DNA of 14,632 bases. It comes from a virus. Both the position numbers and the translations under genes were made by a program. The stretch lies in the UHGV virus genome UHGV-0270538. One strand, given 5' to 3'. Shown one piece after another: positions 1,182 to 14,632 of the stretch. Each line of letters starts with the position of its first letter. The stretch's first letter is position 1. The notes under the pieces are model-generated. The model saw nothing but the letters and a program-made list of their open reading frames with translations, had not been told where the DNA came from and searched no databases.

Positions 1182-1809
1182 GGCATTCACCCGCGTGGAT
1201 GAAACCTTTGAGACCATCCGCGACAGCCTGAATCAGCAGGCCATCAATAACATCGCCAGAAAGCTGGCACAGGATTTACGTCGCGCCCAGCAGGCACGTA
1301 TCCGGTCACAGAAAGCGCCGGACGGGACCGCATGGACACCACGCAGACGCCGCGTAACCCGGATACAGGAGCGCATTCGCTTTATCTGGAATAACGAAGC
1401 ACGCACGCTGAAAAACTGGCATCACGACACGGGGAAATACGGGCGAACCATTACCGGGTGGGATGAGGATAAAAACAGCATCCGCACGTTTTACCGGGAT
1501 GACATCGACCGTTTTCTGGAAATACGCACCCGGCGCATCAACCAGGACAGCACAAAGCGCGTCCCCATGTTCGTAAAACTGCGCACCGCCCGCTACCTGA
1601 AAGCCCGTGCAGATGCCTCCGGTGTGACGGTGGGTTACAGCGGCGTGGCCGCACGTATTGTACGCGTTCATCAGTTCGGTGAGCGCGATCAGGTTGCGCC
1701 GGGCATTTTCACCGATTACCCGGTACGTGAGCTGCTGGGTATCAGCCAGGCAGATGAGCGCCTGATTTATAACACGGTGCTGGGCCGGATTGCGGAGGCT
1801 GTACGGTGA
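1174..1809 (+). CDS. S: tail completion / virion morphogenesis protein S (P2 gpS-like)
   Basis: ORF 1165..1809; ATG at 1174 is preferred over GTG at 1165 because GGGGTGA lies 5 nt upstream. Start overlaps the end of R and the stop overlaps the GTG start of V (GTGA), indicating translational coupling. Position between R and V matches P2 order. Confidence 0.75.
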   Translation: MDKAFTRVDETFETIRDSLNQQAINNIARKLAQDLRRAQQARIRSQKAPDGTAWTPRRRRVTRIQERIRFIWNNEARTLKNWHHDTGKYGRTITGWDEDKNSIRTFYRDDIDRFLEIRTRRINQDSTKRVPMFVKLRTARYLKARADASGVTVGYSGVAARIVRVHQFGERDQVAPGIFTDYPVRELLGISQADERLIYNTVLGRIAEAVR

Positions 1810-2387
1810 GCGCAGAACTCATGCGACTGCTGAGCAACATCATCCGCACCGGGATCATCTCTGAAGTTGATGAGAAGTCCTGGCGCGTGCGCGTTCGCAG
1901 CGGCGAACTGGAAACAGGCTGGTTGCGCTGGAACACCACGCGCGCGGGAGCCTTCAATGTGTGGCTGCCGCCATCACCAGGCGAACAGGTGGTAATTGTC
2001 TGCATTGGCGGCAACCCGGAAACCGCCATGATAATTGGCAGCCTGTGGAGTGATGCCAGTCCGGCCCCCGGCAAAAGCCTGAAAGAAATCGTGGTCAGCG
2101 CGCCGGATGGCGCGGTGTTCCGCTACGACGCAGACGCTGGCGCACTGAGCGCCAGCGGCATGAAAACAGCCACCCTGCAGGCATCCGTCAGCGTGACACT
2201 GGATACGCCCGTCGTGGAATGCACAAACCTTCTGAGAACAGCGACGCTTGACGTCACAAAAGGGGGAAAGATGAGCGGCAATATCACGCACAGCGGCGGC
2301 AATTTCACCTCAAACGGTATCACAGTGCATACGCATAAACACGGTGGCGTTAAAGGTGGCAGCGATTCGACAGGAGGCCCGCAGTGA
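1806..2387 (+). CDS. V: baseplate spike/hub protein V (P2 gpV-like)
   Basis: 193 aa; motifs IRTGII, GEQVVIVCIGGNPE, VECTNLL, TKGGKMSGNITHSGG, VHTHKH match recalled gpV; GGAGG 8 nt upstream of GTG 1806; GTGA overlap with S stop. Confidence 0.9.
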   Translation: MSAELMRLLSNIIRTGIISEVDEKSWRVRVRSGELETGWLRWNTTRAGAFNVWLPPSPGEQVVIVCIGGNPETAMIIGSLWSDASPAPGKSLKEIVVSAPDGAVFRYDADAGALSASGMKTATLQASVSVTLDTPVVECTNLLRTATLDVTKGGKMSGNITHSGGNFTSNGITVHTHKHGGVKGGSDSTGGPQ

Positions 2388-2734
2388 CAACCCGCTACAC
2401 AGGAATGAATCCGGACGGGACGGGAAACCTGAACGATACGGAGCACCTGAAACAGTCAGTCAGGGACATCCTGACCACCCCGCTGGCCAGCCGGGTTATG
2501 CGACGGGAATATGGCAGCCTTGTACCTGATTTGATTGACGAACCCATGAATAACACCACGCGTCTGCAATGCATGAGTGCTGCCGTGATTGCGCTGACAC
2601 GATGGGAACCCCGCATTGCCCTGGACGCCATCGACGTTGTCTGGAAGGCAGGAGGCCGCGCCGGGGTGACGCTGTCGGGCACTGTCATGCAGACCATGCA
2701 GAATGTTGAGTTAACCATCACGCTGAGGGAGTAA
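2384..2734 (+). CDS. W: baseplate wedge protein W (gp25-like, P2 gpW-like)
   Basis: 116 aa; MTTRYTGMN, RVMRREYGSL and WEPRI resemble gpW; CAGGAGG SD 6 nt upstream; GTGA overlap with V stop. Confidence 0.9.
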   Translation: MTTRYTGMNPDGTGNLNDTEHLKQSVRDILTTPLASRVMRREYGSLVPDLIDEPMNNTTRLQCMSAAVIALTRWEPRIALDAIDVVWKAGGRAGVTLSGTVMQTMQNVELTITLRE

Positions 2735-2737
2735 ATC

Positions 2738-3634
2738 ATGCCTGCTGTTGACCTTTCCCAGTTACCGGAACCCGCCATCATCGCGGAGCCTGATTTTGAG
2801 GCAATTCTGGCTGACACAAAGGCCATGATGATTGCGTCCTATCCTGCCGAACAGCGTGAAGCCGTCTCCGCCGCGCTGGAGCTGGAATCGGAACCCCTGA
2901 ACGTTATCGCTCAAACCATGTCTTTTCGTGAAATGCTGTTACGCCAGCGGGTTAACGAGGGCGCACGCGCCTGCATGTTAAGCCACGGTTCAGGGACAAA
3001 TCTGGACAACCTCGCGGGCAATATGAACACAAAGCGCCTGGTTATCACTCCGGCAACGGATACCACCGACGCGGTGATGGAGAGCGACACCTCGCTGAGA
3101 TTGCGGGCGCAGCGGGCGTATGACGGCCTGAGTGTTGCTGGCCCGTCAGGTGCATACGAGTATTTTGCCCGCAGCGCCAGCGGTCTGGTGCGCGATGCGC
3201 GGGCTATCAGTCCGTCTCCGGCCTGTGTGACGGTTTCCATCCTGTCCACTGAAGGCGACGGCACAGCAACGGAGGCGTTGCTTAATACCGTTCGCGCCGT
3301 TCTGAATGCAGAGGATACCCGCCCGGTGGCCGACCGCCTTACTGTACAGAGCGCCAGAATCGTGACATGGCGGCTGAATGCAAAACTGTACTTTTACCCC
3401 GGCCCGGAATCCGAACCTATTCTGGCCGCGGCGGAATCGTCATTCAGGAAGTGGCTGGCTGAACAGGGGCTTATCGGTCAGGACGTGGCGTTGTCCGCCA
3501 TTGCTGCCGCACTTCATGTGCACGGCGTGCAACGCGTGGAGATAATCGAACCCACACAGAATATGGCCATCAGCGACATACAGGCGGCGCGCTGTGAGTC
3601 ATTTACCATCAGCGAAGGTGGGCGCAATGAGTAA
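2738..3634 (+). CDS. J: baseplate assembly protein J (P2 gpJ-like)
   Basis: 298 aa; LSQLPEP, ESEPL, GLSVAGPSGAYEYF, SPSPACVT, RPVADRLTVQSA, YPGPESEPI and LHVHGVQRVE closely parallel recalled gpJ; GAGGGAG SD before ATG 2738. Confidence 0.9.
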   Translation: MPAVDLSQLPEPAIIAEPDFEAILADTKAMMIASYPAEQREAVSAALELESEPLNVIAQTMSFREMLLRQRVNEGARACMLSHGSGTNLDNLAGNMNTKRLVITPATDTTDAVMESDTSLRLRAQRAYDGLSVAGPSGAYEYFARSASGLVRDARAISPSPACVTVSILSTEGDGTATEALLNTVRAVLNAEDTRPVADRLTVQSARIVTWRLNAKLYFYPGPESEPILAAAESSFRKWLAEQGLIGQDVALSAIAAALHVHGVQRVEIIEPTQNMAISDIQAARCESFTISEGGRNE

Positions 3635-4235
3635 TTCACTGTTACCGCCATCAGCCAGCAGTTTCATGCGTTGTGCCGAAGCCGTCGGAACACGCATTAC
3701 AGACATTCCGGTAGACCTCAATACGCTGTGGTCGCCGGATACCTGCCCGGTGCATCTGCTGCCTTATCTCGCCTGGGCGTTTTCCGTTGACCGCTGGGAT
3801 CGCAACTGGCCGGAAGAGACAAAGCGACAGGTAATTCGTGATGCATGGCTGATACACCGACACAAAGGGACCATCAGCGCACTGCGAAGAGCCGTGGAGC
3901 CTCTCGGCTACCTGATTGAAGTAAAGGAGTGGTGGCAACTCAACGAGGAGCCAGGAACATTTCGCATTGTTGTCGGAGTACTTGATCAGGGCATCACCGA
4001 TGAAATGTATCAGGAACTTGAGCGCCTTGTTGCGGATGCAAAACCAGTAAGTCGCCATCTGACGGGGCTGGCGATCAGCCTGAGTGTGAACGGAAAGATT
4101 TTCGTTGGTACGGGATGCTATCACGGCGATGCCCTGACGGTTTATCCCTACACCCCGGAGTCCATTATTGTCGAAGGGGATTATTTCCCTGCCCCGGCCA
4201 TTCATTTAATTGATAATCTAAGAGTAAACGCATGA
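3627..4235 (+). CDS. I: baseplate protein I (P2 gpI-like)
   Basis: ORF track starts at 3594, but homology to gpI begins at MSNSLLPP (ATG 3627) with GAAGGTGG SD 5 nt upstream; start overlaps J stop. Motifs LWSPDTCP, LAWAFSVDRWD, HKGTI, VEPLGY, ADAKPVSRHL. Confidence 0.88.
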   Translation: MSNSLLPPSASSFMRCAEAVGTRITDIPVDLNTLWSPDTCPVHLLPYLAWAFSVDRWDRNWPEETKRQVIRDAWLIHRHKGTISALRRAVEPLGYLIEVKEWWQLNEEPGTFRIVVGVLDQGITDEMYQELERLVADAKPVSRHLTGLAISLSVNGKIFVGTGCYHGDALTVYPYTPESIIVEGDYFPAPAIHLIDNLRVNA

Positions 4236-5839
4236 CAGTGAAATACTACGCCATTCTGACTAATCAGGGCGCAGCACGACTGGCTAACGCGACGATGCTC
4301 GGCAGTAAGCTGAATCTGACGCAAATGGCCGTTGGTGATGCAAATGGTGTGTTACCAACACCAGACCCTGCACAAACAAAACTGATTAACCAGAAACGCA
4401 TTGCACCGCTGAATCTTCTGAGTGTTGACCCTAACAATCAGAGCCAGATTATTGCGGAGCAAATCATCCCTGAAAACGAGGGAGGATTCTGGATCCGTGA
4501 GATTGGTCTTTATGATGATGAAGGTGTACTCATTGCGGTGGCAAACTGCCCGGAAACGTACAAACCGCAGTTGCAGGAAGGCAGTGGACGCACCCAGACT
4601 ATCCGCATGATTCTGGTTGTCACGAACACCGAAGCCATCACGCTGAAAATCGACCCGTCTGTGGTTCTGGCAACCCGCAAATATGTGGATGATAAAATCT
4701 CAGAGCACGAACAGTCACGACGTCACCCGGACGCCTCGCTGACCGCAAAAGGTTTTACTCAGTTAAGCAGTGCAATTAACAGTGAATCAGAAACACTGGC
4801 CGCAACACCGAAAGCAGTTAAGGCTGCATATGACCTGGCTGACGGGAAATATACCGCCCAGAACGCCACCACAACACAAAAAGGGATTGTTCAGCTCAGT
4901 AGCGCCACGAACAGCACGTCTGAAACGCTGGCAGCGACACCAAAAGCTGTTAAGGCGGTAATGGATGAAACGAGCAAGAAAGCACCATTAAACAGCCCGG
5001 CACTGACCGGAACGCCAACAACACCAACAGCGCCACAGGGGACTAATAGTACCCAGATCGCAAGCACGGCTTTCGTTATGGCCGCGATTGCCGCACTTGT
5101 AGATTCGTCACCTGATGCACTGAACACGCTGAACGAACTGGCTGCGGCGCTGGGCAATGACCCGAATTTTGCGACCACCATGACTAACGCGCTTGCGGGT
5201 AAGCAACCGAAGGATGCCACCCTGACGGCGCTGGCGGAGCTTGCTACATCAGCAGATAAACTCCCATATTTTACAGGAGCAGATCGTGCCGCGTTAACCG
5301 CGTTGACAAGTGTTGGACGTGCCATTCTTGGTAAAACCAGCACTCAGGGAGTTCTTGATTACCTTGGTTTGGGAGAAGGCTCTGTATTACCCGTTGGTGT
5401 GCCTGTTCCGTGGCCTTCAGCCACACTGCCAACAGGCTGGCTGAAATGCAACGGGGCGGCATTTTCTGCTGAAGAATACCCGGAACTGGCAAAGGCTTAC
5501 CCGACAAATATATTGCCTGATTTACGTGGTGAATTTATTCGTGGCTGGGATGACGGGCGCGGAGTGGACAGTAGCCGGACGTTGTTGTCGTGGCAAAAAG
5601 GCTCTTATCTGGTTCAGGAAGCCAATATATCACCCGACAGCGTGGTGCAGTTTTCGGTAAACGACATTGCCCTGCTGGGATGGGATAAAACTGAAACCAA
5701 TTCAGATATTCTCAGAGCGAAAAGTATACCTACAGAATATATCTGGAACCCAGTTCCAGTGGGAGCCTGGGGGATTCAGTATCTGGGTTACGCAAGGCCA
5801 CGTAACATTGCATTTAACTACATCGTAAGGGCTGCATGA
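4232..5839 (+). CDS. H: tail fibre protein H, constant N-terminal part fused to the currently expressed variable C-terminal cassette
   Basis: 535 aa; ATGA overlap with I stop; N-terminal two thirds strongly resemble P2 gpH, including the repeated QLSSA-NS-SETLAATPKAVK motif. After the crossover site (5352-5377) the C-terminus carries a tail-collar-type signature (GWLKCNGAAFS ... LPDLRGEFIRGWD). Confidence 0.9.
   Translation: MTVKYYAILTNQGAARLANATMLGSKLNLTQMAVGDANGVLPTPDPAQTKLINQKRIAPLNLLSVDPNNQSQIIAEQIIPENEGGFWIREIGLYDDEGVLIAVANCPETYKPQLQEGSGRTQTIRMILVVTNTEAITLKIDPSVVLATRKYVDDKISEHEQSRRHPDASLTAKGFTQLSSAINSESETLAATPKAVKAAYDLADGKYTAQNATTTQKGIVQLSSATNSTSETLAATPKAVKAVMDETSKKAPLNSPALTGTPTTPTAPQGTNSTQIASTAFVMAAIAALVDSSPDALNTLNELAAALGNDPNFATTMTNALAGKQPKDATLTALAELATSADKLPYFTGADRAALTALTSVGRAILGKTSTQGVLDYLGLGEGSVLPVGVPVPWPSATLPTGWLKCNGAAFSAEEYPELAKAYPTNILPDLRGEFIRGWDDGRGVDSSRTLLSWQKGSYLVQEANISPDSVVQFSVNDIALLGWDKTETNSDILRAKSIPTEYIWNPVPVGAWGIQYLGYARPRNIAFNYIVRAA
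5352..5377. repeat. invertase crossover site (gix/hix-like), left; inside H at the constant/variable junction
   Basis: ttcttgattaccttggtttgggagaa; resembles recalled hixL/gix (TTCTTGAAAACC-AA-GGTTTTTGATAA). Its distal 14 bp (5364-5377) form a perfect inverted repeat with 7303-7316. Confidence 0.65.
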
Positions 5840-6456
5840 TGAGCAAGAAAATCATGACTACAGCGGTGCTGAATGAATCGCGGCTGGCAACAGTTGCAGG
5901 AGAGGTTGTTGTCCACAGCTACGATAATAAGACGCGGGAATACCTTTGCACGTCAACCGAATATCTGGCTGTGGGCGTTGGCCTTCCTGCACATTCATGC
6001 ACTGATGCCCCCGGGGAAAGGCGGGCTGGTTATGTGATTTGCCGCACTGCTGACCTGACCGCGTGGGAGTATGTGCCGGACCATCGGGGTGAGACAGTCT
6101 ATAACACAGAAACCCGTGAGGCAGCAGAAATTACCACTCCGGGTGATTACCCTGAAAACACAACCACTGTCGCACCGTTAACGCCATACGATAAATGGGA
6201 TGGTGAGGAATGGGTGACCGATACAGATGCGCAACATCGTGCCGCTGTAGAAGCGGCAGAAACACAACGCCAGTCGCTGATTGATACTGCAATGGCTTCC
6301 ATTAGTCTGATTCAGCTGAAATTACAGGCCGGGCGGAAACTGACGCAGGCAGAAACAACCCGGCTTAACGCTGTGCTGGATTACATTGACGCGGTGACGG
6401 CAACAGATACCAGTACCGCGCCGGATATCAATTGGCCTGCTCCCCCGGAGGCGTAG
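5836..6456 (+). CDS. G: tail fibre assembly chaperone G (Tfa, Mu U-like), cognate to the expressed H cassette
   Basis: 206 aa; ATGA overlap with H stop; C-terminal Tfa signature (TSTAPDINWPAPPEA); lies inside the invertible segment. Confidence 0.85.
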   Translation: MMSKKIMTTAVLNESRLATVAGEVVVHSYDNKTREYLCTSTEYLAVGVGLPAHSCTDAPGERRAGYVICRTADLTAWEYVPDHRGETVYNTETREAAEITTPGDYPENTTTVAPLTPYDKWDGEEWVTDTDAQHRAAVEAAETQRQSLIDTAMASISLIQLKLQAGRKLTQAETTRLNAVLDYIDAVTATDTSTAPDINWPAPPEA

Positions 6457-6844
6457 GCCAGACGGGATTTGATGTATCAACGCGCATCAGCAAGACCCGG
6501 TATTTTTTCCATTCAGATAACGCGGCGGTTTCTTCTGCCGTCGCGATTTCCGCATCAAAAGCATCCTGTCTCCAGACTATTTCCTTATCAGCCATAGAAC
6601 GCAATACCGTTCTTTTCTGTTCAGCCTGAATAATCTGTTGTTCAGCGGAGAGTGGCGGGATATCAATCCACGCAGGATTACCATTTTTATCAGCCCCCAG
6701 CGTTTTGCCTTCTGGCGCTACGCCTGTGTAAATTGCCATTGTTTCATCATCAACATCAGCGCCATTTTCAGGCCATGAACCGGCGCTGATATATACCTCT
6801 TTTAGTGCTTTCGGATAGAAAGAGCCTTTATAAAATTTATTCAT
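6428..6844 (-). CDS. alternative tail fibre assembly chaperone G' (Tfa), silent in this orientation
   Basis: Minus-strand ORF 6428..6874; preferred start is ATG at 6844 (MNKFYKG...), 2 nt after the H' stop with a GGGG SD-like stretch upstream. C-terminal Tfa signature (WKKYRVLLMRVDTSNPVWPTPP). Converges on G with a 29-bp 3' overlap. Confidence 0.8.
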   Translation of the reverse strand: MNKFYKGSFYPKALKEVYISAGSWPENGADVDDETMAIYTGVAPEGKTLGADKNGNPAWIDIPPLSAEQQIIQAEQKRTVLRSMADKEIVWRQDAFDAEIATAEETAALSEWKKYRVLLMRVDTSNPVWPTPPGEQAN

Positions 6845-6846
6845 TC

Positions 6847-7316
6847 TTAATACCCCAGCGCGATAAAACAACAATCTTCGGTGCCCTCTCCGGATGGCGA
6901 CCAGTTCTGAATACTGATGTGCGTTCTGCTGGCAATACGCACATTCATCGCGGCATTGTAGCCAGATGTTCCACGGTTTCCGGTCGCAAACAAGCCTGCA
7001 TAGGGAAAAGCAAATGGTAAGGCATATCCAGCATCAGCTCCCTTTTGTGTTGCCACCGTTCCCCACTGCAACATAAGTTTCACCGGGTTTCCTGTCGTCG
7101 CAATGCATGGAATGTAGATGTAGCCATTACCTGACATCATTGACCTGAAGCTGTCTAAATCCAGTAACTTCGAGGCATTATCTGCTCCAACATCTCGTGT
7201 TGCAGCGGTCCCTAACTGGAGCGCATTTCGGAAGGCTGATACATCAGAAATATCAGATCCATTAGCCGATTTCTGCATAGCTCTGGAGGCTCTATTTATC
7301 GTTTCTCCCAAACCAA
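6847..7316 (-). CDS. alternative tail fibre C-terminal cassette H' (promoterless, no own start; expressed only after inversion)
   Basis: Minus-strand open frame running from the crossover site (7303-7328) to TAA at 6847-6849. It encodes ...GLGE at the site, the same junction peptide as H (LGLGE at 5366-5377). The ORF-track Met at 7356 lies upstream of the crossover site and is probably not used. Confidence 0.7.
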
Positions 7317-7328
7317 CGTTTAAGAAAA
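7303..7328. repeat. invertase crossover site (gix/hix-like), right; inverted copy 55 bp upstream of the invertase gene
   Basis: Plus strand ttctcccaaaccaacgtttaagaaaa; reverse complement ttttcttaaacg-tt-ggtttgggagaa shares the core and a 12-bp half-site exactly with the left site. Position just upstream of the invertase gene matches Mu gixR/gin. Confidence 0.65.
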
Positions 7329-7383
7329 TGCAGAGATTACGGCTAACTGGCATCATCCCCGGTTTTTATTCAGGGGATCCATC

Positions 7384-7983
7384 ATGCTTATTGGCTATGT
7401 CCGCGTATCAACAAATGACCAGAATACAGAATTGCAGCGTAACGCGCTGGAGTGCGCAGGATGTGAACTGATTTTTGAAGATAAAATCAGCGGAACGAAA
7501 TCAGCCAGACCGGGATTGAAAAAACTGCTCAGAACGCTATCAGAAGGAGATACGCTGGTTGTCTGGAAGCTGGACAGACTGGGCAGAAGTATGAAACACC
7601 TGATCACGCTTATTGAGGAATTGCGGGAAAAAGGTGTTAATTTCCGTAGTCTGACGGACAGCATTGACACATCAACACCCATGGGGCGTTTCTTTTTTCA
7701 CGTCATGGGAGCTTTAGCCGAAATGGAACGTGAATTAATTGTAGAGCGTACACTGGCCGGGCTGGCAGCAGCACGCGCACAAGGACGCATTGGCGGACGT
7801 CGCCCGAAGTTGACAAAAGAACAACACGAGCAAATAGCGAGGCTGATTAAAAACGGTCATGACAGGAAACAACTGGCGATCATTTACGACATCGGCATAT
7901 CGACGATTTATCGTTATCACCCTGTAGGCGATATACAGGCTGAAGAAACAACCAGGCAGACTCAGGAAAATGAAAACCGCTAA
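7384..7983 (+). CDS. site-specific DNA invertase, serine recombinase of the Gin/Pin/Cin/Hin family
   Basis: 199 aa; N-terminus MLIGYVRVSTNDQNT with the catalytic Ser in VRVST; conserved VVWKLDRLGRSMKHL, SLTDSIDTS, MGRFFFHVMGALAEMERELI and a C-terminal HTH region (ISTIYRY). AGGGGA SD 6 nt before the ATG. Confidence 0.95.
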   Translation: MLIGYVRVSTNDQNTELQRNALECAGCELIFEDKISGTKSARPGLKKLLRTLSEGDTLVVWKLDRLGRSMKHLITLIEELREKGVNFRSLTDSIDTSTPMGRFFFHVMGALAEMERELIVERTLAGLAAARAQGRIGGRRPKLTKEQHEQIARLIKNGHDRKQLAIIYDIGISTIYRYHPVGDIQAEETTRQTQENENR

Positions 7984-8002
7984 TCTGACCATTAGCGGTT
8001 TT
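7973..8002. terminator. putative bidirectional intrinsic terminator between the convergent invertase and U genes
   Basis: Perfect 12-bp inverted repeat aaaaccgctaat / attagcggtttt with a 6-nt loop (ctgacc). The GC core stem is followed by a T-run on both strands. It overlaps the invertase stop codon (7981-7983) and ends 7 bp before the U stop. Confidence 0.5.
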
Positions 8003-8009
8003 GCGTTAA

Positions 8010-8504
8010 TCAAAACAGCCCTTTAACGGAGCTGGCCGCGCTGTTAAGGGATGATGTGACCTTATCTTTGAAGCCGGACAGCATATCACTGAACGATGAG
8101 GATTGCAGGCGCTCCCGCAAATCCTCATCACAGCGTTCAAGAGTCAGTGAAAATTCTATCTTTTTCGCCTTACCGTAGCGATCAAACTCGGAGCGGGTCG
8201 TATTCGTTCCGGTCAGGACATACATGCCGTAAATCTGCCCGACACCATCAATCAGAGGCCAGGGGCGTCCTGTATATGCCTGCGTGGTCAGCAACGAAAG
8301 CGACACTTCGCCACCTGTAATTTCAGGATAAAGCACGCCGGAAAGCACGATGCGATCATCACCTGCGCCGATATACTGCCAGCTTGCTGAACGGTTAACG
8401 CGTTCATTTTTCACATGCCGCCAGCTTTTGTTTTGCTGTAACTGCTGATGCGGCAATGTGCGCAGCTCAAAAACAAACATGCCGTAGATCATCATCATGG
8501 CCAT
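8010..8504 (-). CDS. U: tail protein U (sheath terminator, P2 gpU-like)
   Basis: 164 aa; MFVFELRTLPHQ, YPEITGGEVSL, WPLIDGVG and FSLTLER resemble gpU. GGAG lies only 2 nt before the first ATG, so the true start may be the third Met (8498). Confidence 0.85.
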   Translation of the reverse strand: MAMMMIYGMFVFELRTLPHQQLQQNKSWRHVKNERVNRSASWQYIGAGDDRIVLSGVLYPEITGGEVSLSLLTTQAYTGRPWPLIDGVGQIYGMYVLTGTNTTRSEFDRYGKAKKIEFSLTLERCDEDLRERLQSSSFSDMLSGFKDKVTSSLNSAASSVKGLF

Positions 8505-8510
8505 GACTCC

Positions 8511-11354
8511 TCAATCTTTATCGTAAAAACTGCCACGTCCGGCACGGTCGCGTCGTTCCAATTCTGCCCTGACCATTTCACCGACCAGTTTCGCCAGTTC
8601 GCGGGGATTCTGCGTAACAACGTTATGCAGATGAACATGAATTTCACCGCCAAATCCGGAGACAACAGGCTCCCGGTTACGGGAAGTTGCAGGAACTGAT
8701 GCCACTGGCGATCGTATGGCCTCCGCCACCGGGCGGGAGCTGGCCGCAACAACAGGGACCAGCGCCGGAGGCAGAGGAGTCGGGACCACGGGTGTGATGT
8801 TGATTGCGGAAGCAGGCTTACTGACCTGCGCAATCTTCCGCTCCTGCCACTCCCCACGAACAGCAAGTGCGCGGGGCAGATTCTTAAAGACAATATCGCC
8901 GGGGCCAATGCGTTTTTTCGTCTCATCAACCAGCTTACCTGTGTTATCAGCAATTTTGCTGAGTCTGCGTAGCGTACCGGTATTGCTGTCTGTGAGCGGT
9001 TTGTTGTCTTTGGGTTTATCACCTCCGGTGCCATTGCCATTTTCCACAGGCTTCGGCGGATTGATTTTCGCCAGGTCCCCCTGAAGCAAGGCAACCTTGT
9101 CCTGAAGAATGGCCGCACGCTGTGCGTCTTCGATTTTCTTACGCGCCCTTTCCGCTTCATCCGGAAGGACGCCAAGTTTTTCAAGTATCCACGCCAGCGT
9201 ATCCAGTAGCATTTTTGCAGGCGTCAGAACAAGTTGTAACGCACCGCCAAGAACGTTACCGAATATCTCGCCAGCACTGGTACATTTATCCAGCGTTTCC
9301 TTGCTGGACTCCATCGGTGACAACAGCGATTTAAACCAGTTAAACACCTGGCTGATCCCGCTTCCGATTGCGTCAAAAACAGGACCAAACCGTTCAAAGG
9401 TTTCGCGCAACGGGGTCAGCCTTTCCATAATCCCGCTGAACACCCCGGCAAAAAATGCCTTAATGGGTTCCCAGTATTTCCAGATGAGAACCGCCGCAGC
9501 CACAAACGCAGCAGCAATCAATCCAACCGGACTGAACAGCGCCCCGATAGCGCCTCCCAGCAAAGAAACAGAACCCGTCAGCATTCCCCACAGCGCAGGC
9601 AACACCCGGACGACATTCATTGACCGGGTAAGAATGTCAAAACCAAGACGCAGGGTGGCCAGCTTTCCGTAAAGCACCCCAATAACCAGCGACAACGAGC
9701 CAATCGTTGCAGTCATTGCCAGCAACGCACCGCCTGCTATCAGTAGCTGGCGCGTCAGTACCGGATGGGCCTGCGCCAGCGAGGTGATTTTTTCAAGCAC
9801 CCGCGTGAGCCACTGCGTGACAGAACGCAGCGGACCGTCAACCAGATCACTGATGCGAATACGAAGACCTTCCCATGCGCTGTCGAGATTTTTCAGGTCC
9901 CCATCAAGATTATCGGCCATTACTTTTGCAACGCGATCGGCCTCTCCCCTTGCCCCCTGCAATTCTCTGGTCAGTTTTTGCAGCTCTCCTGAACCAGCCG
10001 CCGCAACAAGCGTCTGTAAACCAACGAACGCCTCTTCTCCGGCGATGTCCTTGAAGAAGGAAATCTGGTCCACCTGTCCGTATTTTTGTGTCGCCTTATA
10101 GAGATCAAGCAGCACATCCTCCATCGGGCGCATTTTGCCTCTGGCGTCAGCAACTGACACCCCCAGCTCTTTCAGTGCATCAGCCGCAGCTTTTGGCGGT
10201 GATGCAAGGCGGGACAGACTTGCGCGCATGGCCGTACCAGCATCGCTTCCGCGAAGACCATTATTGGCAAGCATCCCGGCCATGGCCGCCGCTTCTTCAA
10301 GACTGATACCAAGTTTTGCGGCAACCGGACCGGTATACTTCATGGTTTCGCCCAGCGCGCGTAAATCAGTATTGGTCCGGGTGAATGCTGCTGTCAGCGT
10401 ATCGCCAACCCGGTCCATTTGATCGGCTGTCAGGTTGAACTGTGTGAGGATATTGGAGCCTATATCAGCCGTCTCGCCGAGTTCGACGCCACCTGCCAGC
10501 GCCATATTAAGAACACCGGGCAATGCGGCCTGAATGGCCTGCGGAGTAAAACCAGCCATTGCCAGAAAGCTCTGCCCACTGGCGGCATCACTCGCAGTAA
10601 ACTGTGTTTCAGAACCAAGTTTTAACGCCTGCTCACGCAGCGCCTTAAACTGCGGGCTGTTTTTGTCGATTCGCGTCAGTGCCTGAACGCGGGACATCTC
10701 TTTCCCGAACCCGATCGCAGGCTGCAAAAAACGCCCGGCAGCATAGCCGCCAGCCGCTGCCGCACCAATTGCCAGCGCACCACCTGTTTTCAGTTTTCCC
10801 GCGGTTTCCTGCGCGCGCGAATACCGCTCACGCGCCCGCGTTACACGCGCAAGCGCCTGCCGTTCGCGTTCAAGCTGGTTGTTGTACTGTTCGGTGCGTC
10901 TGATGGCCTGCTGGATGGTGTTATCGCTGCCTGTCAGGGAAATGCCGTGGCGTTTCAGCTCTCCGCCAAGCTCCCGCATTTTCTGAATTTCCCGTGTGCG
11001 CGATTCATTCAGGCGTTCAAGCCGGGTGCTTAACTGCTGCATCAGCTTTTGTTGTTTTTCGCTGAGCACTGTACCCGTGCGTTGTAACTGATTAAGGGCG
11101 TTAAGCTGGCGTCGTGCTTTCACGATACCCGCATCCGCTTTACTGACAGCGTCGCGGGCGCGCTCAAATGATCGCGCCTGACGCTCGAGATTTTTGATCG
11201 CCCCCTGCGTTCGCTGGATGGAGTCACCAAACTGCCCCATCAGGCGGCGGGCGTTTTCGGCAGGCCGGGTCAGCCTGTCAACGGCGCTGAAAGCGACCCG
11301 GATATCAAGAGTCTTCATTGTCTGCATTCCCGCTGCGAAGTGCCGCCCGCTCAC
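8511..11354 (-). CDS. T: tail tape measure protein T (P2 gpT-like)
   Basis: 947 aa, Ala/Gly/Leu-rich with coiled-coil N-terminal region and hydrophobic central segments; sits between E/E' and U. The GTG at 11354 is uncertain; in-frame ATGs at 11327 and 11318 are alternatives. Overlaps the end of E'. Confidence 0.9.
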   Translation of the reverse strand: MSGRHFAAGMQTMKTLDIRVAFSAVDRLTRPAENARRLMGQFGDSIQRTQGAIKNLERQARSFERARDAVSKADAGIVKARRQLNALNQLQRTGTVLSEKQQKLMQQLSTRLERLNESRTREIQKMRELGGELKRHGISLTGSDNTIQQAIRRTEQYNNQLERERQALARVTRARERYSRAQETAGKLKTGGALAIGAAAAGGYAAGRFLQPAIGFGKEMSRVQALTRIDKNSPQFKALREQALKLGSETQFTASDAASGQSFLAMAGFTPQAIQAALPGVLNMALAGGVELGETADIGSNILTQFNLTADQMDRVGDTLTAAFTRTNTDLRALGETMKYTGPVAAKLGISLEEAAAMAGMLANNGLRGSDAGTAMRASLSRLASPPKAAADALKELGVSVADARGKMRPMEDVLLDLYKATQKYGQVDQISFFKDIAGEEAFVGLQTLVAAAGSGELQKLTRELQGARGEADRVAKVMADNLDGDLKNLDSAWEGLRIRISDLVDGPLRSVTQWLTRVLEKITSLAQAHPVLTRQLLIAGGALLAMTATIGSLSLVIGVLYGKLATLRLGFDILTRSMNVVRVLPALWGMLTGSVSLLGGAIGALFSPVGLIAAAFVAAAVLIWKYWEPIKAFFAGVFSGIMERLTPLRETFERFGPVFDAIGSGISQVFNWFKSLLSPMESSKETLDKCTSAGEIFGNVLGGALQLVLTPAKMLLDTLAWILEKLGVLPDEAERARKKIEDAQRAAILQDKVALLQGDLAKINPPKPVENGNGTGGDKPKDNKPLTDSNTGTLRRLSKIADNTGKLVDETKKRIGPGDIVFKNLPRALAVRGEWQERKIAQVSKPASAINITPVVPTPLPPALVPVVAASSRPVAEAIRSPVASVPATSRNREPVVSGFGGEIHVHLHNVVTQNPRELAKLVGEMVRAELERRDRAGRGSFYDKD

Positions 11355-11834
11355 GCCAGCTAACCACTTCGCCGGGCGTCATCATGAAGATTTCGGCGGG
11401 CGACCAGTTAAAAATGGCGGCAATATCCGCCACAAAGTCTTCTATGTGCTCAAAGCACACAACCGTGATCAGGCTTCCGTCGCCTGTTCGCTCTTCCCGC
11501 CAGAGTCCGCACCGCTCAAAAAATTTACGGCAACCACACATAACTGAATAAAATCACGGGATGCCATTTTTTTGATCGTCACTTCATCCAGTCGTGGCGA
11601 GGTCACGCGTGACAGCAGCGTAAACATGGATTCCGCTTTCAGATTCAGCACATCAGACAGCGACAAATCTCGCAGAGATCCAGCCTGCTCAATAGCCCCG
11701 GTGATCTCCACATACGTGATTTTTTCGCCGCCTCGCTCAATTGGTTGGGTAAGTTTTACGCCACGCTCACTGGTTTCTTTCACAGTGTCAGTAACTACCG
11801 TGTTTTCGGTATCGATGTTTTTCGTCTCTTTCAT
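11305..11834 (-). CDS. E': tail assembly chaperone E+E' fusion made by programmed -1 ribosomal frameshift (about 176 aa)
   Basis: The -1 frame is open from 11553 down to TGA at 11305-11307. Slippery heptamer U-UUU-UUG at 11523..11517 on the coding strand, in frame as AAU-UUU-UUG (N-F-L). Same heptamer and gene position as P2 E/E'. Confidence 0.7.
11469..11834 (-). CDS. E: tail assembly chaperone E (P2 gpE-like; lambda G analogue)
   Basis: 121 aa, acidic; AAGGAG SD 8 nt upstream of ATG 11834; lies between FII and T and contains the T-TTT-TTG slippery site. Confidence 0.8.
   Translation of the reverse strand: MKETKNIDTENTVVTDTVKETSERGVKLTQPIERGGEKITYVEITGAIEQAGSLRDLSLSDVLNLKAESMFTLLSRVTSPRLDEVTIKKMASRDFIQLCVVAVNFLSGADSGGKSEQATEA
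11517..11523 (-). other. programmed -1 frameshift slippery heptamer TTTTTTG (E to E')
   Basis: Plus strand caaaaaa at 11517-11523; on the minus strand it reads T-TTT-TTG in the E frame, with an open -1 frame downstream. Confidence 0.75.
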
Positions 11835-11888
11835 CAGGAAACTCCTTTCAGTCAGAGGCGACGCACTGCGCCGCCTGCATATTACTTA

Positions 11889-12401
11889 TCAGCCAAGCCC
11901 GAGCGCGGAACGGATGCGATCGGGCACAATGTCCTTGCCGTCCTTCCGGTAGATGTGGTTCAACAGGTCGATTTCCCACAGCGGGCGATCGTTAACGCTC
12001 AGCTTGTAGTAGGTGTTTTTGACAGCGTAAGTGTGTGATGTGGCTTCGCCCTGTTTGGCCTCCCCCATATCAATTTCCGTCACACGCCCGCGCATCTCGA
12101 TTTCATACAGATCGCTTTCTGCATCGGTGTAGTATTCACCCGCAAAACGCAGCAGCGTGCTGTCAATCGTGCCGCCATATTTAAGGAACAGCGCACGAAC
12201 AGCTCCCCCCATGACAAAGCTCGCATCAAGCGCGGAGTCGTCCAGACCGAGATCAATACTTACCGCACCCATCATGCCACCACCCCGGTAGCTGTCGGTT
12301 TTGCGCGTCAGCTTAGGCAGAGTGACGGACGTCACCTTACCCACTTCGTTTTCACCATCCACAAACAGCGTAAAAAAGCGAAGATGTTTTGGTACAGCCA
12401 T
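11889..12401 (-). CDS. FII: tail tube protein FII (P2 gpFII-like)
   Basis: 170 aa; VTLPKLTRK, YRGGGM, IDLGLDD, RFAG and EIDMGEAKQGE resemble gpFII; GGGAGG SD; start overlaps FI stop by 1 nt (TGATG). Confidence 0.9.
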   Translation of the reverse strand: MAVPKHLRFFTLFVDGENEVGKVTSVTLPKLTRKTDSYRGGGMMGAVSIDLGLDDSALDASFVMGGAVRALFLKYGGTIDSTLLRFAGEYYTDAESDLYEIEMRGRVTEIDMGEAKQGEATSHTYAVKNTYYKLSVNDRPLWEIDLLNHIYRKDGKDIVPDRIRSALGLG

Positions 12402-13585
12402 CAGGCACCTCCCAGCACCGCAAATGCGGGACCAAAGAATTCATCAGTAAACGTCTGGTAAAGCTCCATGTCTTCCAGTGGCGGAACGGGCGTATATTTG
12501 TAGCGAATACGCACACGTCCCTGACGTAAATCCGTGGTGCCGTTATCCACCACGTCATACCAGCACTCCGCGCCAATCAGTTTCCCGGCAGTAACCAGCG
12601 AATCCAGTTTTGCCCTGATGGCACTGATAACATCCTTCACGTTCGCAGGCGTCAGTGGACTGTCGATGGTTTCAAACTGCGCTTCCGCAATTGAATCAGC
12701 CAGCACCTGTGCGGTTCGGGTATACACCTCAAAGATGTAGGCGTTCGTTTCCGGTGTGCGGTTGCCCCAGAAGCGGAACCCGTTACGACGAATAATGGTC
12801 GTGATTTCTTTGTTGTTGAGGCTGTTGGCATCACTGTCTTCGGCCTGTAACGACCAGAACACATGCCTCGACATCCCCAGCACATTTTTAACCGGAACGT
12901 TGGACAGCGATTTGTGCCAGCCCTGCTCATGGTCAATGTACGCACGAAGGCCGCACGCATAAGCAGGCGCGGGGAACGTTTCGTTTTTGCCACTTTTCGG
13001 GTTGTAGGCGATGAAGTCCGGCCATAAGAGCATCACCTCACGTTCGTTGAATTTCTGGCGGTAGGTAATTGCCTCAGCCATCGTGTTACAGTCATGACAT
13101 GAGGCATACACAAACGCGCGCAGTTTACCCGCAATCACGCACAGGGATTTTGTCACCGCCTCCGTGTCCAGCTCCGGCGCGGCCAGAATACGCGGACGGT
13201 ATCCGATGCTTTCATCCTGCTCTGCAACAAGCAGCGCATACATCCCCGTATAGCTGCCGTCAGATTCAGAACCACCGATAACCAGTTGATCCTGCGTCTT
13301 ACCGCCTTCTTCTTTGTGTTCAGCCACGCGAACGACGATCACTTTTGTGCTCACCTGGTCTGCAATAGCCTTAAGCGCACGATAAAGCGTCCCCGTAGTC
13401 CCGCATTTTCCCAGCACGTCATTGACGCGGGTCAGCAGTGTGGGCTTGTTCAGCGGGAACAGCTCCGCGTCCGCATCATCCGCCGTTGCCACGATACCGA
13501 TAACACTGGAATCAACATCATTAATCGCTGTTACCAGGTCGGTACTTTCCGTAACACGGGCACCATGAAAACGAGTTTCACTCAT
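12401..13585 (-). CDS. FI: contractile tail sheath protein FI (P2 gpFI-like)
   Basis: 394 aa; FPLNKP, KLRAFVY, YRQ-F, WPDF, DHEQGWHKSLSNV, IRRNGFRFWGNRT, YTRTAQV and YKYTPVPPLE match recalled gpFI; AAGGGG SD 8 nt before the ATG. Confidence 0.95.
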   Translation of the reverse strand: MSETRFHGARVTESTDLVTAINDVDSSVIGIVATADDADAELFPLNKPTLLTRVNDVLGKCGTTGTLYRALKAIADQVSTKVIVVRVAEHKEEGGKTQDQLVIGGSESDGSYTGMYALLVAEQDESIGYRPRILAAPELDTEAVTKSLCVIAGKLRAFVYASCHDCNTMAEAITYRQKFNEREVMLLWPDFIAYNPKSGKNETFPAPAYACGLRAYIDHEQGWHKSLSNVPVKNVLGMSRHVFWSLQAEDSDANSLNNKEITTIIRRNGFRFWGNRTPETNAYIFEVYTRTAQVLADSIAEAQFETIDSPLTPANVKDVISAIRAKLDSLVTAGKLIGAECWYDVVDNGTTDLRQGRVRIRYKYTPVPPLEDMELYQTFTDEFFGPAFAVLGGA

Positions 13586-13742
13586 AGCTTCAGCCCCTTG
13601 TATCCGTTAAATGATTCGGCAACAATCATCACCCACCACGCGCGTAATCTCACCCCTGCGCCGTTCTCCCGCCACGGCGACAACAAAAAGCAGTAACCCC
13701 CTATGCACGCACATGCGACCATGCCGCACAGGGAGGGAACAG

Positions 13743-14632
13743 ATGACCGATACCACCATGCAATTGCTCAGTCAGAGCACAGACCCCGTGAAAATGCCGG
13801 ATTTTGATATTCTCGCGGAGGGGGAAACACTGTCCGGCGTGGCAGAGCGCCTGATGAGCCTGTCACTGACCGACAACCGGGGATTTGACGCGGACCTGCT
13901 CACCATCACGCTGGATGATGCGGATGGTCAGTTGCAGCTACCGCCACGGGGCGCGCGCCTGACGGTTCTCATTGGCTGGAAAGGAGAACCGCTGACAGAA
14001 AAAGGCACTTACATTGTTGATGAAATCGCTCACGAAGGACCGCCGGACAGGCTGACTGTTTCAGCCAGAAGCGCAGATTTTCGGGATGAATTTAACGTTA
14101 AACGTGAGGTGTCCTGGCATGATGTGACCATTGAGCGTGTGGTATCCGCCATCGCTCACCGGTACGGTCTGAAACCGCAAATCAGCGAAATGCTGATGGA
14201 TATTGAAATCGACCACGCCGACCAGACCGAAGAAAGCGACATGTCCTTCCTTACGCGCATGGCGGAAATGCTGGGCGCAATCACTACGGTAAAAAGCAGT
14301 AATCTGTTATTCATCATGCCAGGCGGTGGCGTGAACGCACAGGGTCAGCCGTTGCCATCGTTCGCCATCACACGCAGCAGCGGCGATCGCCATCAGTTTC
14401 GCATTGCTGACCGCGAAGCGTATACGGGGGTACGCGCTTACTGGCTTGATCTTAATTACGGGAAAAAGAAAAAAGTCAGCGTGAAACGCCGCAAACCGCC
14501 AAAACCCAAAAAGGAGAAAAGCAGCAGCCGTGAAGGTGATTATATGGAAGGCGCGGAAGGCAATGTGTTTGTGTTACGCAAGACTTATCAGAACGAGCAG
14601 GCAGCAAGACGCGCAGCGGCGGCAAAGTGGCA
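13743..14632 (+). CDS. D: tail protein D (P2 gpD-like), 5' part; continues beyond the window
   Basis: Open frame from ATG 13743 (GGGAGGG SD 6 nt upstream) to the window end, 296 codons. Motifs SLSLTDNRGF, DDADGQ, RSADFR, SWHD, QTEESD, FLTRMAE, AYTGV, lysine-rich KKKKVSVKRRKPPKPKKEK and EGDYMEGAEGNVF match gpD. Absent from the ORF track only because no stop falls in the window. Confidence 0.9.
   Translation, partial: MTDTTMQLLSQSTDPVKMPDFDILAEGETLSGVAERLMSLSLTDNRGFDADLLTITLDDADGQLQLPPRGARLTVLIGWKGEPLTEKGTYIVDEIAHEGPPDRLTVSARSADFRDEFNVKREVSWHDVTIERVVSAIAHRYGLKPQISEMLMDIEIDHADQTEESDMSFLTRMAEMLGAITTVKSSNLLFIMPGGGVNAQGQPLPSFAITRSSGDRHQFRIADREAYTGVRAYWLDLNYGKKKKVSVKRRKPPKPKKEKSSSREGDYMEGAEGNVFVLRKTYQNEQAARRAAAAKW

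What the first reader, a model, noticed from the sequence alone, without database searches (positions are those of the whole stretch)
7984..13742. Sheath-tube-chaperone-tape measure-U module is inverted relative to the baseplate operon and gene D
In P2 and its relatives the order is V-W-J-I-H-G then FI-FII-E-E'-T-U-D, all on one strand. Here V to G and D are on the plus strand, whereas FI, FII, E/E', T and U are intact on the minus strand. U converges on the invertase gene across a 26-bp gap, and FI diverges from D across 157 bp. Re-inverting roughly 8003..13742 restores canonical synteny. The rearrangement sits next to a serine invertase gene, so invertase action on a secondary site is one possibility; another recombination event, or a misassembly, are others. 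All genes look intact, so the module may still work, but D is cut off from the FI promoter.
Basis: partly seen in the sequence, partly recalled or inferred. Interest (0 to 1): 0.75.

Follow-up and report, generated by a model that had tools for sequence, protein, structure and literature searches.

The report
Fixed tail-gene inversion in P88-like prophages
The "inverted" sheath-to-U tail module is real, but it is the normal, inherited gene order of a large branch of P2-like phages (P88, phiSM, SEN4 and about a quarter of complete E. coli genomes), so it is an ordinary lineage trait and not a recent inversion, invertase accident or misassembly.

Summary
R-S-V-W-J-I-H-G, a serine invertase and D lie on the plus strand. 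U, T, E/E', FII and FI lie intact on the minus strand, with gaps of 26 bp (invertase|U) and 157 bp (FI|D).

- The same colinear layout occurs in plaque-forming phage P88 and other Xuanwuvirus records, and in Senquatrovirus SEN4.
- It occurs in all 24 genomic loci from 13 named genera (12 Enterobacterales plus one probable mislabel) whose sheath is at least 69% identical.
- 1358 of 1379 complete E. coli genomes carrying this DNA keep the FI|D junction. None of 1413 has a P2-type U-to-D junction.
- Most relatives lack the invertase.
- The only hix-like sites in the window flank the usual invertible tail-fibre segment (5361-7319).

D is probably not orphaned. The FI|D spacer holds a conserved P2 Ogr-type dyad, GTTcT-N12-ACAAC. 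A -10-like hexamer lies 34 nt from it on each side. This matches P2's annotated divergent pP/pO promoters, which share one activator site. I infer a bidirectional late promoter; this is not shown experimentally. The arrangement is already known and of low interest.

The parts
5361..7319 (.). Invertible tail-fibre segment, the real substrate of the invertase. It is bounded by hix/gix-like inverted sites at 5361-5377 and 7303-7319. It carries the H C-terminus plus tfa (plus strand) and an alternative tfa' 6428-6874 plus H' C-terminal cassette 6847-7356 (minus strand).
   Evidence: Inverted repeat I12, 17 nt, 94% complementary. The motif TTCTCCCAAACCAAGG with up to 3 mismatches is found only at these two places. 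Pfam gives Caudo_TAP and Gp53-like_C.
7384..7983 (+). Serine DNA invertase (Hin/Gin/Cin/Pin type).
   Evidence: Pfam Resolvase 6e-52 plus HTH_7.
7969..8002 (.). Hairpin AAAACCGCTAAT-N6-ATTAGCGGTTTT between the convergent invertase and U genes. It is a candidate bidirectional intrinsic terminator.
   Evidence: It folds at -16.9 kcal/mol (plus) and -15.6 kcal/mol (minus), z = -3.4 and -2.4, with U-runs on both strands. The terminator scan listed it on the minus strand.
8010..8504 (-). gpU tail protein.
   Evidence: Pfam Phage_P2_GpU 1.5e-38. 100% aa identity to P88.
8511..11318 (-). gpT tape measure. The likely ATG is at 11318; the mechanical ORF start is a GTG at 11354.
   Evidence: Pfam PhageMin_Tail 9e-57. 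Sequence read. The length equals P88 gp45.
11305..11834 (-). gpE (11469-11834) and the -1 frameshift product E+E' (ending at 11305). The slippery heptamer T_TTT_TTG is at 11523-11517.
   Evidence: Pfam Phage_P2_GpE in the -1 frame. P2 annotates the same -1 frameshift.
11889..12401 (-). gpFII tail tube.
   Evidence: Pfam Phage_tube 9e-46.
12401..13585 (-). gpFI tail sheath.
   Evidence: Pfam Phage_sheath_1, Gp18_domIII_N and Phage_sheath_1C.
13586..13742 (.). Divergent FI|D control region. The inferred bidirectional Ogr-type late promoter has the dyad GTTCT-N12-ACAAC at 13663-13684 (centre 13673.5). The FI-side -10-like GATGAT is at 13630->13625 on the minus strand, giving a predicted TSS near 13618. 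The D-side -10-like GACCAT is at 13717-13722 on the plus strand, giving a predicted TSS near 13729. The D ribosome-binding site GGAGGG is at 13732-13737.
   Evidence: Conserved islands in an alignment of 22 relatives. The dyad and A2/T6 hexamers lie 34-35 nt away on both sides in 22 of 23 relatives. The same exact motif sits in P88's terminase|scaffold intergenic region. Perfect TTGT-N12-ACAA dyads occur in SEN4's three late intergenic regions. The geometry equals P2's annotated pP/pO and pF promoters.
13743..14632 (+). gpD (tail/baseplate hub, 'late control D'), N-terminal 296 codons. It runs off the window.
   Evidence: Pfam Phage_GPD 4.5e-9. 97% aa identity to P88 gp51. In P88 and E. coli NU14 it is followed by an ogr/Delta zinc-finger gene.

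Best explanation
The window is the late region of a P88-like (Xuanwuvirus-type, Peduoviridae) prophage. In this whole sublineage of P2-like phages the FI-FII-E/E'-T-U block, together with its own late promoter, lies in the opposite orientation to V-G and to D. The arrangement is ancestral and fixed, and most simply reflects one old inversion. It is not an ongoing or recent event and has nothing to do with the neighbouring invertase, which flips only the tail-fibre segment 5361-7319.

The layout works as follows. (i) FI-U is transcribed leftward from a P2-type, Ogr-activated promoter and ends at a bidirectional hairpin terminator shared with the convergent invertase/fibre operon. (ii) D, followed outside the window by ogr, is transcribed rightward from a second core promoter. 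That promoter uses the same activator-binding dyad, centred about 55 bp from both predicted starts. P2's divergent pP and pO promoters share one site in exactly this way.

Shown: the gene order, its fixation and phylogenetic spread, the absence of invertase sites at the junctions, and the conservation and geometry of the motifs. Inferred: that an inversion (rather than another assembly route) produced the layout, and that the motifs are a functional bidirectional Ogr-dependent promoter.
For: Layout and intactness.

Lineage trait:
- One colinear BLAST piece (invertase -> U..FI -> D) at 91-95% identity in P88, 500465-2, P884B11, Shae_phiSM, PhiR44_2 and Chuche, and in 1038 of 5426 complete E. 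coli genomes.
- The P88 whole-genome map is identical. SEN4, whose FI is 56% identical, has the same layout with a 157-bp FI|D gap and no invertase.
- Among 57 GTDB loci, all 24 with FI at least 69% identical have the inverted layout and all 33 with FI at most 48% identical have P2 order.
- The FI|D junction is intact in 1358 of 1379 E. coli genomes; a synthetic U->D junction is found in 0 of 1413.

Functionality: P88 forms plaques, has a burst size of about 65 and shows contractile tails by EM (PMC5285337). phiSM is described as an active phage (PMC6456863).

Not the invertase.

Promoter:
- The P2 record annotates one activator site (3057-3087) for divergent pP (TSS 3016) and pO (TSS 3127). 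The TGT-N12-ACA consensus and a shared PP'/PO' site are described in PMC3931495.
- The window dyad GTTCT-N12-ACAAC has 3 exact copies in the 35.8-kb P88 genome. My own calculation expects about 0.07. Two of the three lie in the two divergent late intergenic regions.
- SEN4 has perfect TTGT-N12-ACAA dyads in its three late intergenic regions (P|O, S|V, FI|D).
- In 22 of 23 clade members an A2/T6 hexamer lies 34 nt (35 nt in two cases) from the dyad on both sides. There are six different D-side hexamers (GACCAT, AATCAT, GATCCT, GATCGT, AATTAT, GACGAT).
- The same 34-35 nt rule recovers the annotated TSSs of P2 pP, pO and pF.
- The distance from dyad to FI ATG is 73 nt in P2 and 72-79 nt in the clade, so pF travelled with FI.
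- An Ogr_Delta gene follows D in P88 and NU14.
- No consensus sigma-70 promoter lies in the spacer, as expected for activator-dependent promoters.
Against: - There are no transcript data: the TSSs, Ogr dependence and terminator function are all inferred from sequence.
- The left half-site is TCT rather than TGT in most members. P2's own sites are also imperfect (TGT-N12-CCA).
- The clade members are related, so motif conservation is not fully independent evidence.
- A third exact copy of the motif lies inside gene T (9233-9254). This shows the 10-base motif alone is not fully specific.
- 'Inversion' as the historical mechanism cannot be proven. Per-gene identities are star-like for R, S, W, FI-U and D, so a recombinational assembly of the layout cannot be excluded.
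Confidence: 0.85

Rival explanations
1. This is a recent inversion in this strain, caused by the adjacent serine invertase acting on secondary (pseudo-hix) sites at about 8003 and about 13742.
For: An invertase gene lies 26 bp from U. Invertases of this family can occasionally use pseudo-sites (general knowledge).
Against: No hix-like site lies at either junction with up to 3 mismatches, and no inverted repeat bounds the block. The layout is present in relatives with no invertase: 21 of 24 GTDB loci and SEN4. A canonical-order relative, L028, has an invertase next to an un-inverted FI. No E. coli genome out of 1413 has the opposite orientation.
Confidence: 0.01
2. This is an assembly artefact: a contig mis-join or flipped scaffold segment.
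For: None beyond the departure from P2 order.
Against: The same junctions occur in over 1000 independently finished E. coli chromosomes and in 13 phage records. The junction regions carry conserved functional-looking elements.
Confidence: 0.005
3. The layout did not arise by in-situ inversion. Instead it arose by modular recombination: an ancestor acquired a FI-U cassette, with its promoter, from another myovirus lineage in the opposite orientation.
For: Clade FI is slightly less similar to canonical enterobacterial P2-likes (49%) than those are to non-enterobacterial P2-likes (55%). V, J and I are much closer to the enterobacterial ones (46-57% against 31-43%). The genome is therefore mosaic.
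Against: R, S, W and D, which lie outside the inverted block, show the same star-like pattern as FI-U. The odd ones out are the baseplate/fibre genes V-J-I-H, not the inverted block. The dyad-to-FI spacing is identical to P2 at 73 nt, and the internal order FI-FII-E-E'-T-U is unchanged.
Confidence: 0.12
4. D is expressed independently of the shared dyad, for example from a constitutive or differently regulated promoter. On this view the conserved D-side elements are only the RBS/leader.
For: The D-side hexamers are weak -10s (GACCAT, GATCCT). The predicted leader is only about 13 nt. There are no transcript data.
Against: The hexamer position is invariant (34-35 nt from the dyad) while its sequence changes but keeps A2/T6 in six variants. 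It mirrors the FI side and P2's pP/pO exactly. The scan found no sigma-70-like promoter in the spacer.
Confidence: 0.2

Closest known systems
Escherichia phage P88 and other Xuanwuvirus (500465-2, P884B11, Citrobacter phage Shae_phiSM, PhiR44_2, Chuche)
   Same: The gene order and orientation are identical from R to D, including invertase -> <- U T E' E FII FI <- -> D. Identity is 91-95% nucleotide over 81-89% of window 6400-14632, and tail proteins are 94-100% identical at the amino-acid level.
   Different: The tail-fibre C-terminus and tfa cassettes differ: the H N-terminus is 58% identical and the first ~900 nt of the query (6400-7300) are not matched. The lysis-region ORF is DUF6645 here and DUF2570 in P88.
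Salmonella phage SEN4 (Senquatrovirus)
   Same: It has the same inverted FI-U block, the same 157-bp FI|D spacer, and a central TGT-N12-ACA dyad with 34-nt hexamer spacing.
   Different: FI is only 56% identical. There is no invertase or invertible fibre segment. The dyad is perfect (TTGT-N12-ACAA).
Bacteriophage P2 (Peduovirus) F operon: pF-FI-FII-E-E'-T-U-D-ogr
   Same: The gene set and internal order are the same. The -1 frameshift uses the same TTTTTTG heptamer. The activator dyad lies 73 nt upstream of the FI ATG, and ogr follows D.
   Different: In P2 the block is co-directional with V-G and with D, and D is the last structural gene of the F operon. Here the block is inverted and D stands alone with ogr. 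Proteins are about 45-50% identical.
P2 divergent late promoters pP/pO with one shared activator-binding site
   Same: There is one dyad, with two starts about 111 bp apart, each about 55 bp from the dyad centre. -10-like hexamers lie 34 nt outside the dyad, and the -35 elements are poor. P88 carries the same motif at its own P|O region.
   Different: Here the architecture is found at FI|D, a position where P2 has a unidirectional promoter. Function here is inferred, not measured.
Gin/Cin/Pin/Hin invertible tail-fibre (G/C/P) segments
   Same: The 5361-7319 segment has hix-like inverted sites inside H, alternative H C-terminus/tfa cassettes and an adjacent serine invertase.
   Different: This system concerns the fibre segment only. 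The 5.7-kb FI-U block has none of its hallmarks.

Membership tests
P2-like (Peduoviridae) contractile-tail module | Sheath FI, tube FII, chaperones E and E+E' made by a -1 frameshift at a slippery heptamer, tape measure T, U and D. | tested here: met
   Pfam hits for all of them. The heptamer T_TTT_TTG is in frame at 11523-11517, and the -1 frame carries the GpE domain.
P2-like (Peduoviridae) contractile-tail module | Canonical P2 synteny: V-W-J-I-H-G then FI-FII-E-E'-T-U-D, all on one strand. | tested here: not met
   FI-U is on the opposite strand (P2 map). Gene order is not a defining criterion of the family. Other order variants exist, such as Smp131 (PMC3931495) and alphaproteobacterial loci with V-W next to FI.
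Xuanwuvirus (P88-like phages) | High nucleotide identity and colinearity with P88 over the genome. | tested here: inconclusive
   Identity is 92.8% over 88% of window 6400-14632, with identical gene order. Only 14.6 kb is available, so the genome-wide genus criterion cannot be applied.
Serine-invertase invertible segment (Gin/Hin type), applied to the FI-U block | A pair of inverted ~26-bp hix/gix-like crossover sites at the segment boundaries. | tested here: not met
   The only sites are at 5362-5377 and 7303-7318. No site with up to 3 mismatches lies near 8003 or 13742, and no inverted repeat bounds the block.
Serine-invertase invertible segment (Gin/Hin type), applied to the FI-U block | Both orientations are found in populations or among close relatives. 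| tested here: not met
   No E. coli genome out of 1413 shows the alternative (U->D) junction, and 1358 of 1379 show the FI|D junction.
Serine-invertase invertible segment (Gin/Hin type), applied to 5361-7319 | Inverted crossover sites within the fibre gene, alternative C-terminus/tfa cassettes, and an adjacent invertase. | tested here: met
P2 Ogr/Delta-dependent late promoter | A TGT-N12-ACA-like dyad centred about 55 bp upstream of the start, a weak -35, and a -10-like hexamer. | tested here: met
   The dyad TCT-N12-ACA (GTTcT-N12-ACAAC) lies at 13663-13684, with A2/T6 hexamers 34 nt away on both sides. The geometry equals the annotated P2 promoters. The consensus is cited in PMC3931495.
P2 Ogr/Delta-dependent late promoter | Transcription depends on an Ogr/Delta zinc-finger activator. 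| not testable with these tools
   An Ogr_Delta gene is present after D in P88 and NU14, but it lies outside this window. Activity needs an experiment.

The most novel reading that the evidence does not exclude
The ancestral inversion carried pF's activator dyad next to D and created a second bidirectional Ogr-dependent late promoter (pF/pD). This mirrors pP/pO. D-ogr would then form a short, separately tunable and self-activating late operon, instead of being the tail end of a 6-kb F operon. This promoter architecture is not described in the papers I could search.
Probability: 0.6. Interest if true: 0.3.

Novelty: already known. Interest (0 to 1): 0.15.

Why it matters
The main value is as a correction. 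Departure from P2 synteny here should not be flagged as a rearrangement, an assembly error or invertase activity. It is the standard layout of a very common group of enterobacterial prophages (Xuanwuvirus/Senquatrovirus-like), present in about 25% of complete E. coli genomes.

There is also a modest biological point. The layout appears to reuse one palindromic activator site for two divergent late operons. This shows how a P2-type regulatory circuit tolerates an operon inversion without orphaning a gene. Annotators and prophage-calling tools that assume P2 order, and anyone engineering P88-like phages or tailocins, should treat FI-U and D-ogr as separate transcription units.

Tried and rejected
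- An exact TGT-N12-ACA search in the window gave only 2 hits, both intragenic and below chance. The functional-looking site has TCT in one half, so this search missed it. It was found only through the alignment of relatives.
- The generic sigma-70 scan found nothing in the FI|D spacer. This is uninformative for activator-dependent promoters.
- The third exact copy of GTTCT-N12-ACAAC, inside gene T (9233-9254, minus strand), sits next to the TTG start of an out-of-frame 229-aa ORF (8495-9184). Distant relatives do not conserve it, so I treat it as chance.
- Literature: the P88, phiSM, SEN4, Serratia PP4/KSP20 and 'global P2-like diversity' papers do not mention the inversion. A keyword search for a description of it found nothing relevant.
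- Foreign origin of the FI-U block was considered and found unsupported, though not excluded.
- I did not use the protein-database, structure-prediction or Rfam tools, because the gene identities were unambiguous from Pfam.
Full report
**1. What is in the window**

The ORF map and Pfam scans show the late region of a P2-like myovirus.

- Plus strand: R (714-1181), S (1165-1809), V (1806-2387), W (2384-2734), J (2738-3634), I (3594-4235), tail fibre H (4232-5839) and a fibre assembly gene (5836-6456).
- Minus strand: a second tfa (6428-6874) and an alternative fibre C-terminal cassette (6847-7356).
- Plus strand: a serine invertase (7384-7983; Resolvase + HTH_7).
- Minus strand: U (8010-8504), T (8511-11318), E/E' (11305-11834), FII (11889-12401) and FI (12401-13585).
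- Plus strand: D from 13743, running off the window.

The minus-strand genes are intact, with the same lengths as in phage P88. The E/E' -1 frameshift signal T_TTT_TTG is in the correct frame at 11523-11517, and the -1 frame encodes the GpE domain.

**2. Is it a rearrangement of this genome?**

No. A megablast of 6400-14632 against phage records gives a single colinear piece spanning invertase -> U...FI -> D, at 91-95% identity. The records are P88, 500465-2, P884B11, Citrobacter phage Shae_phiSM, PhiR44_2 and Chuche, of the genus Xuanwuvirus. Among 5426 complete E. coli genomes, 1038 have one place covering at least 80% of the query. The annotated P88 genome has exactly this map.

I built a synthetic P2-type junction from the last 300 nt of U joined to the first 300 nt of D. 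It occurs as one place in 0 of 1413 genomes that carry these sequences. The real FI|D junction (13300-14050) is intact in 1358 of 1379.

P88 is a working phage: it makes plaques, has a burst size of about 65 and shows a contractile tail by EM (PMC5285337). phiSM is described as active (PMC6456863).

**3. How deep does the layout go?**

A scan of one genome per GTDB species with the sheath protein returned 57 loci. I mapped twelve window proteins onto them by tblastn.

- All 24 loci with FI at least 69% identical have the layout D<- ->FI FII E T U-> <-H I J W V S R. They come from Salmonella, Citrobacter, Edwardsiella, Enterobacter, Kosakonia, Symbiopectobacterium, Erwinia, Mixta, Pantoea, Izhakiella, Trabulsiella, Kluyvera and Serratia, plus a contig labelled Vagococcus that is probably mislabelled.
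- All 33 loci with FI at most 48% identical have P2 order.
- Salmonella phage SEN4 (Senquatrovirus, FI 56% identical) also has the inverted layout, with a 157-bp FI|D gap.

The trait therefore defines a deep sublineage of Peduoviridae that spans at least two ICTV genera.

**4. Is the invertase responsible?**

No.

- hix/gix-like sites occur only at 5362-5377 and 7303-7318, bounding the classical invertible fibre segment. Nothing with up to 3 mismatches lies at the block's junctions, and no inverted repeat bounds 8003-13742.
- Only 3 of the 24 inverted-layout loci have an invertase between U and H. Even the closest ones (L002 and L003, FI 98% identical) lack it, and so does SEN4.
- Conversely, canonical-order locus L028 has an invertase directly upstream of an un-inverted FI.
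- The invertase cassette looks like a later insertion at the convergent G|U junction.

**5. How does the layout work?**

*Left junction.* The sequence AAAACCGCTAAT-N6-ATTAGCGGTTTT (7969-8002) overlaps the invertase stop codon. It folds stably on both strands (-16.9 and -15.6 kcal/mol) and is followed by U-runs on both (listed). I infer a bidirectional terminator for the convergent units.

*Right junction.* The 157-bp spacer aligns across 22 relatives with discrete conserved islands.

- The central island is GTTcT-N12-ACAAC(AAAA) at 13663-13684. It reads GTTGT-N12-ACAAC in Kluyvera L019 and TTGT-N12-ACAA in SEN4. This is the P2 late-promoter element TGT-N12-ACA (consensus as cited in PMC3931495).
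- The P2 GenBank record annotates a single activator-binding site (3057-3087) for the divergent pP (TSS 3016) and pO (TSS 3127) promoters. Both starts lie about 55 bp from its centre.
- From P2's annotated starts I derived a simple rule: a hexamer with A at position 2 and T at position 6 lies 34-35 nt outside the dyad triplets, and the start is about 7 nt beyond it. The rule holds for pP (TAGCCT), pO (GAAACT) and pF (GAAAAT).
- Applied to the window, the rule gives GATGAT (13630->13625, minus strand), hence an FI start near 13618. It also gives GACCAT (13717-13722, plus strand), hence a D start near 13729, just upstream of the D ribosome-binding site.
- In 22 of 23 clade members such hexamers lie 34 nt (35 in two cases) from the dyad on both sides. 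The D-side hexamer occurs in six sequence variants that all keep A2/T6.
- The exact 10-base motif occurs three times in P88. By my own calculation about 0.07 copies are expected. Two copies lie in the two divergent late intergenic regions, terminase|scaffold and FI|D.
- SEN4 has perfect TTGT-N12-ACAA dyads in its three late intergenic regions: P|O, S|V and FI|D.
- The dyad lies 73 nt from the FI ATG in P2 and 72-79 nt in the clade. pF therefore moved together with FI.
- An Ogr/Delta zinc-finger gene follows D in P88 and in E. coli NU14.

I conclude that D is not orphaned. It most likely has its own late promoter sharing pF's activator site. This is inferred from sequence only.

**6. Origin**

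Mean pairwise identities show that the clade is roughly equidistant from enterobacterial and non-enterobacterial canonical P2-likes for R, S, W, FI, FII, E, T, U and D. For FI the figures are 49% clade versus enterobacterial, 45% clade versus other, and 55% between the two canonical groups. V, J and I are clearly closer to enterobacterial P2-likes.

The anomalous genes are thus the baseplate/fibre genes, not the inverted block. This favours an old in-situ inversion in a deeply branching lineage, followed by later exchange of host-range genes. Assembly by modular recombination cannot be excluded (about 0.12).

**7. Comparison with what is known, and novelty**

The arrangement is that of published, deposited phages (P88, phiSM, SEN4, KSP20/PP4-like) and of a quarter of finished E. 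coli genomes, so it is already known as a sequence fact. The papers I could search do not comment on it.

The only element not found in the literature is the inferred bidirectional pF/pD promoter. It is a straightforward variant of P2's pP/pO.

**8. Verdict**

It is an ordinary lineage trait.

- Interest: 0.15.
- Most novel reading not excluded: a second shared-activator divergent late promoter creating a short D-ogr operon (probability about 0.6, interest about 0.3 if true).

Noticed in passing
window 5361-7319: This is a classical invertible tail-fibre segment. hix/gix-like sites (TTCTCCCAAACCAAGG / ...AACG) lie inside H and upstream of the invertase. Two alternative H C-terminus plus tfa cassettes are present, and the H-G cassette is currently in the expressed orientation.
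   Followed up: partly
window 9233-9254 (minus strand), inside gene T: A third exact copy of the late-promoter dyad GTTCT-N12-ACAAC lies here. It would place a start near 9188, next to the TTG (9184) of an out-of-frame 229-aa ORF (8495-9184). It is conserved only in the closest relatives (one mismatch in L002/L003) and is absent in distant ones, so it is probably chance.
   Followed up: partly
L002 (NZ_JBQPOM010000071.1, 'Vagococcus sp. WN89Y'): A contig labelled as a Firmicute carries this enterobacterial prophage with 92-98% amino-acid identity across its tail genes (FI and D 98%). This probably reflects contamination or a mislabelled assembly.
   Followed up: no
phage records NC_049344 (520873) and NC_049341 (503458): IS100 (IS21-family) insertions interrupt the tail module of these P88-like prophage records; the matches are split into 2 pieces.
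   Followed up: no
window 1806-5839 compared with the rest: The genome is mosaic. V, J, I and the H N-terminus are much closer to canonical enterobacterial P2-likes (46-83% identity) than R, S, W, FI-U and D are. This suggests exchange of baseplate/host-range genes between the two lineages.
   Followed up: partly
L032, L035, L037, L039-L041, L043-L051, L054-L056 (alphaproteobacterial P2-like loci): These loci show another tail-gene order variant: J-I ... V-W immediately upstream of FI. P2 order is therefore not universal in the family. A rearrangement is also reported for Smp131 in PMC3931495.
   Followed up: no
L061 (E. coli NU14, NZ_CP019777) 9698-10551: In this ST95 UPEC prophage, D is annotated only from an internal start (801 nt), with a pseudo fragment upstream. 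This may be a damaged D. The prophage sits next to serS, with ogr and hok/gef after D.
   Followed up: no
window 166-690: The lysis-region ORF here is a DUF6645 protein, whereas P88 has a DUF2570 protein at the equivalent place. P88 also has a dyad-like GTGGT-N12-AGAAC inside that gene (18642-18663). No obvious separate V-operon promoter was found in the window; S overlaps V by 4 nt.
   Followed up: no
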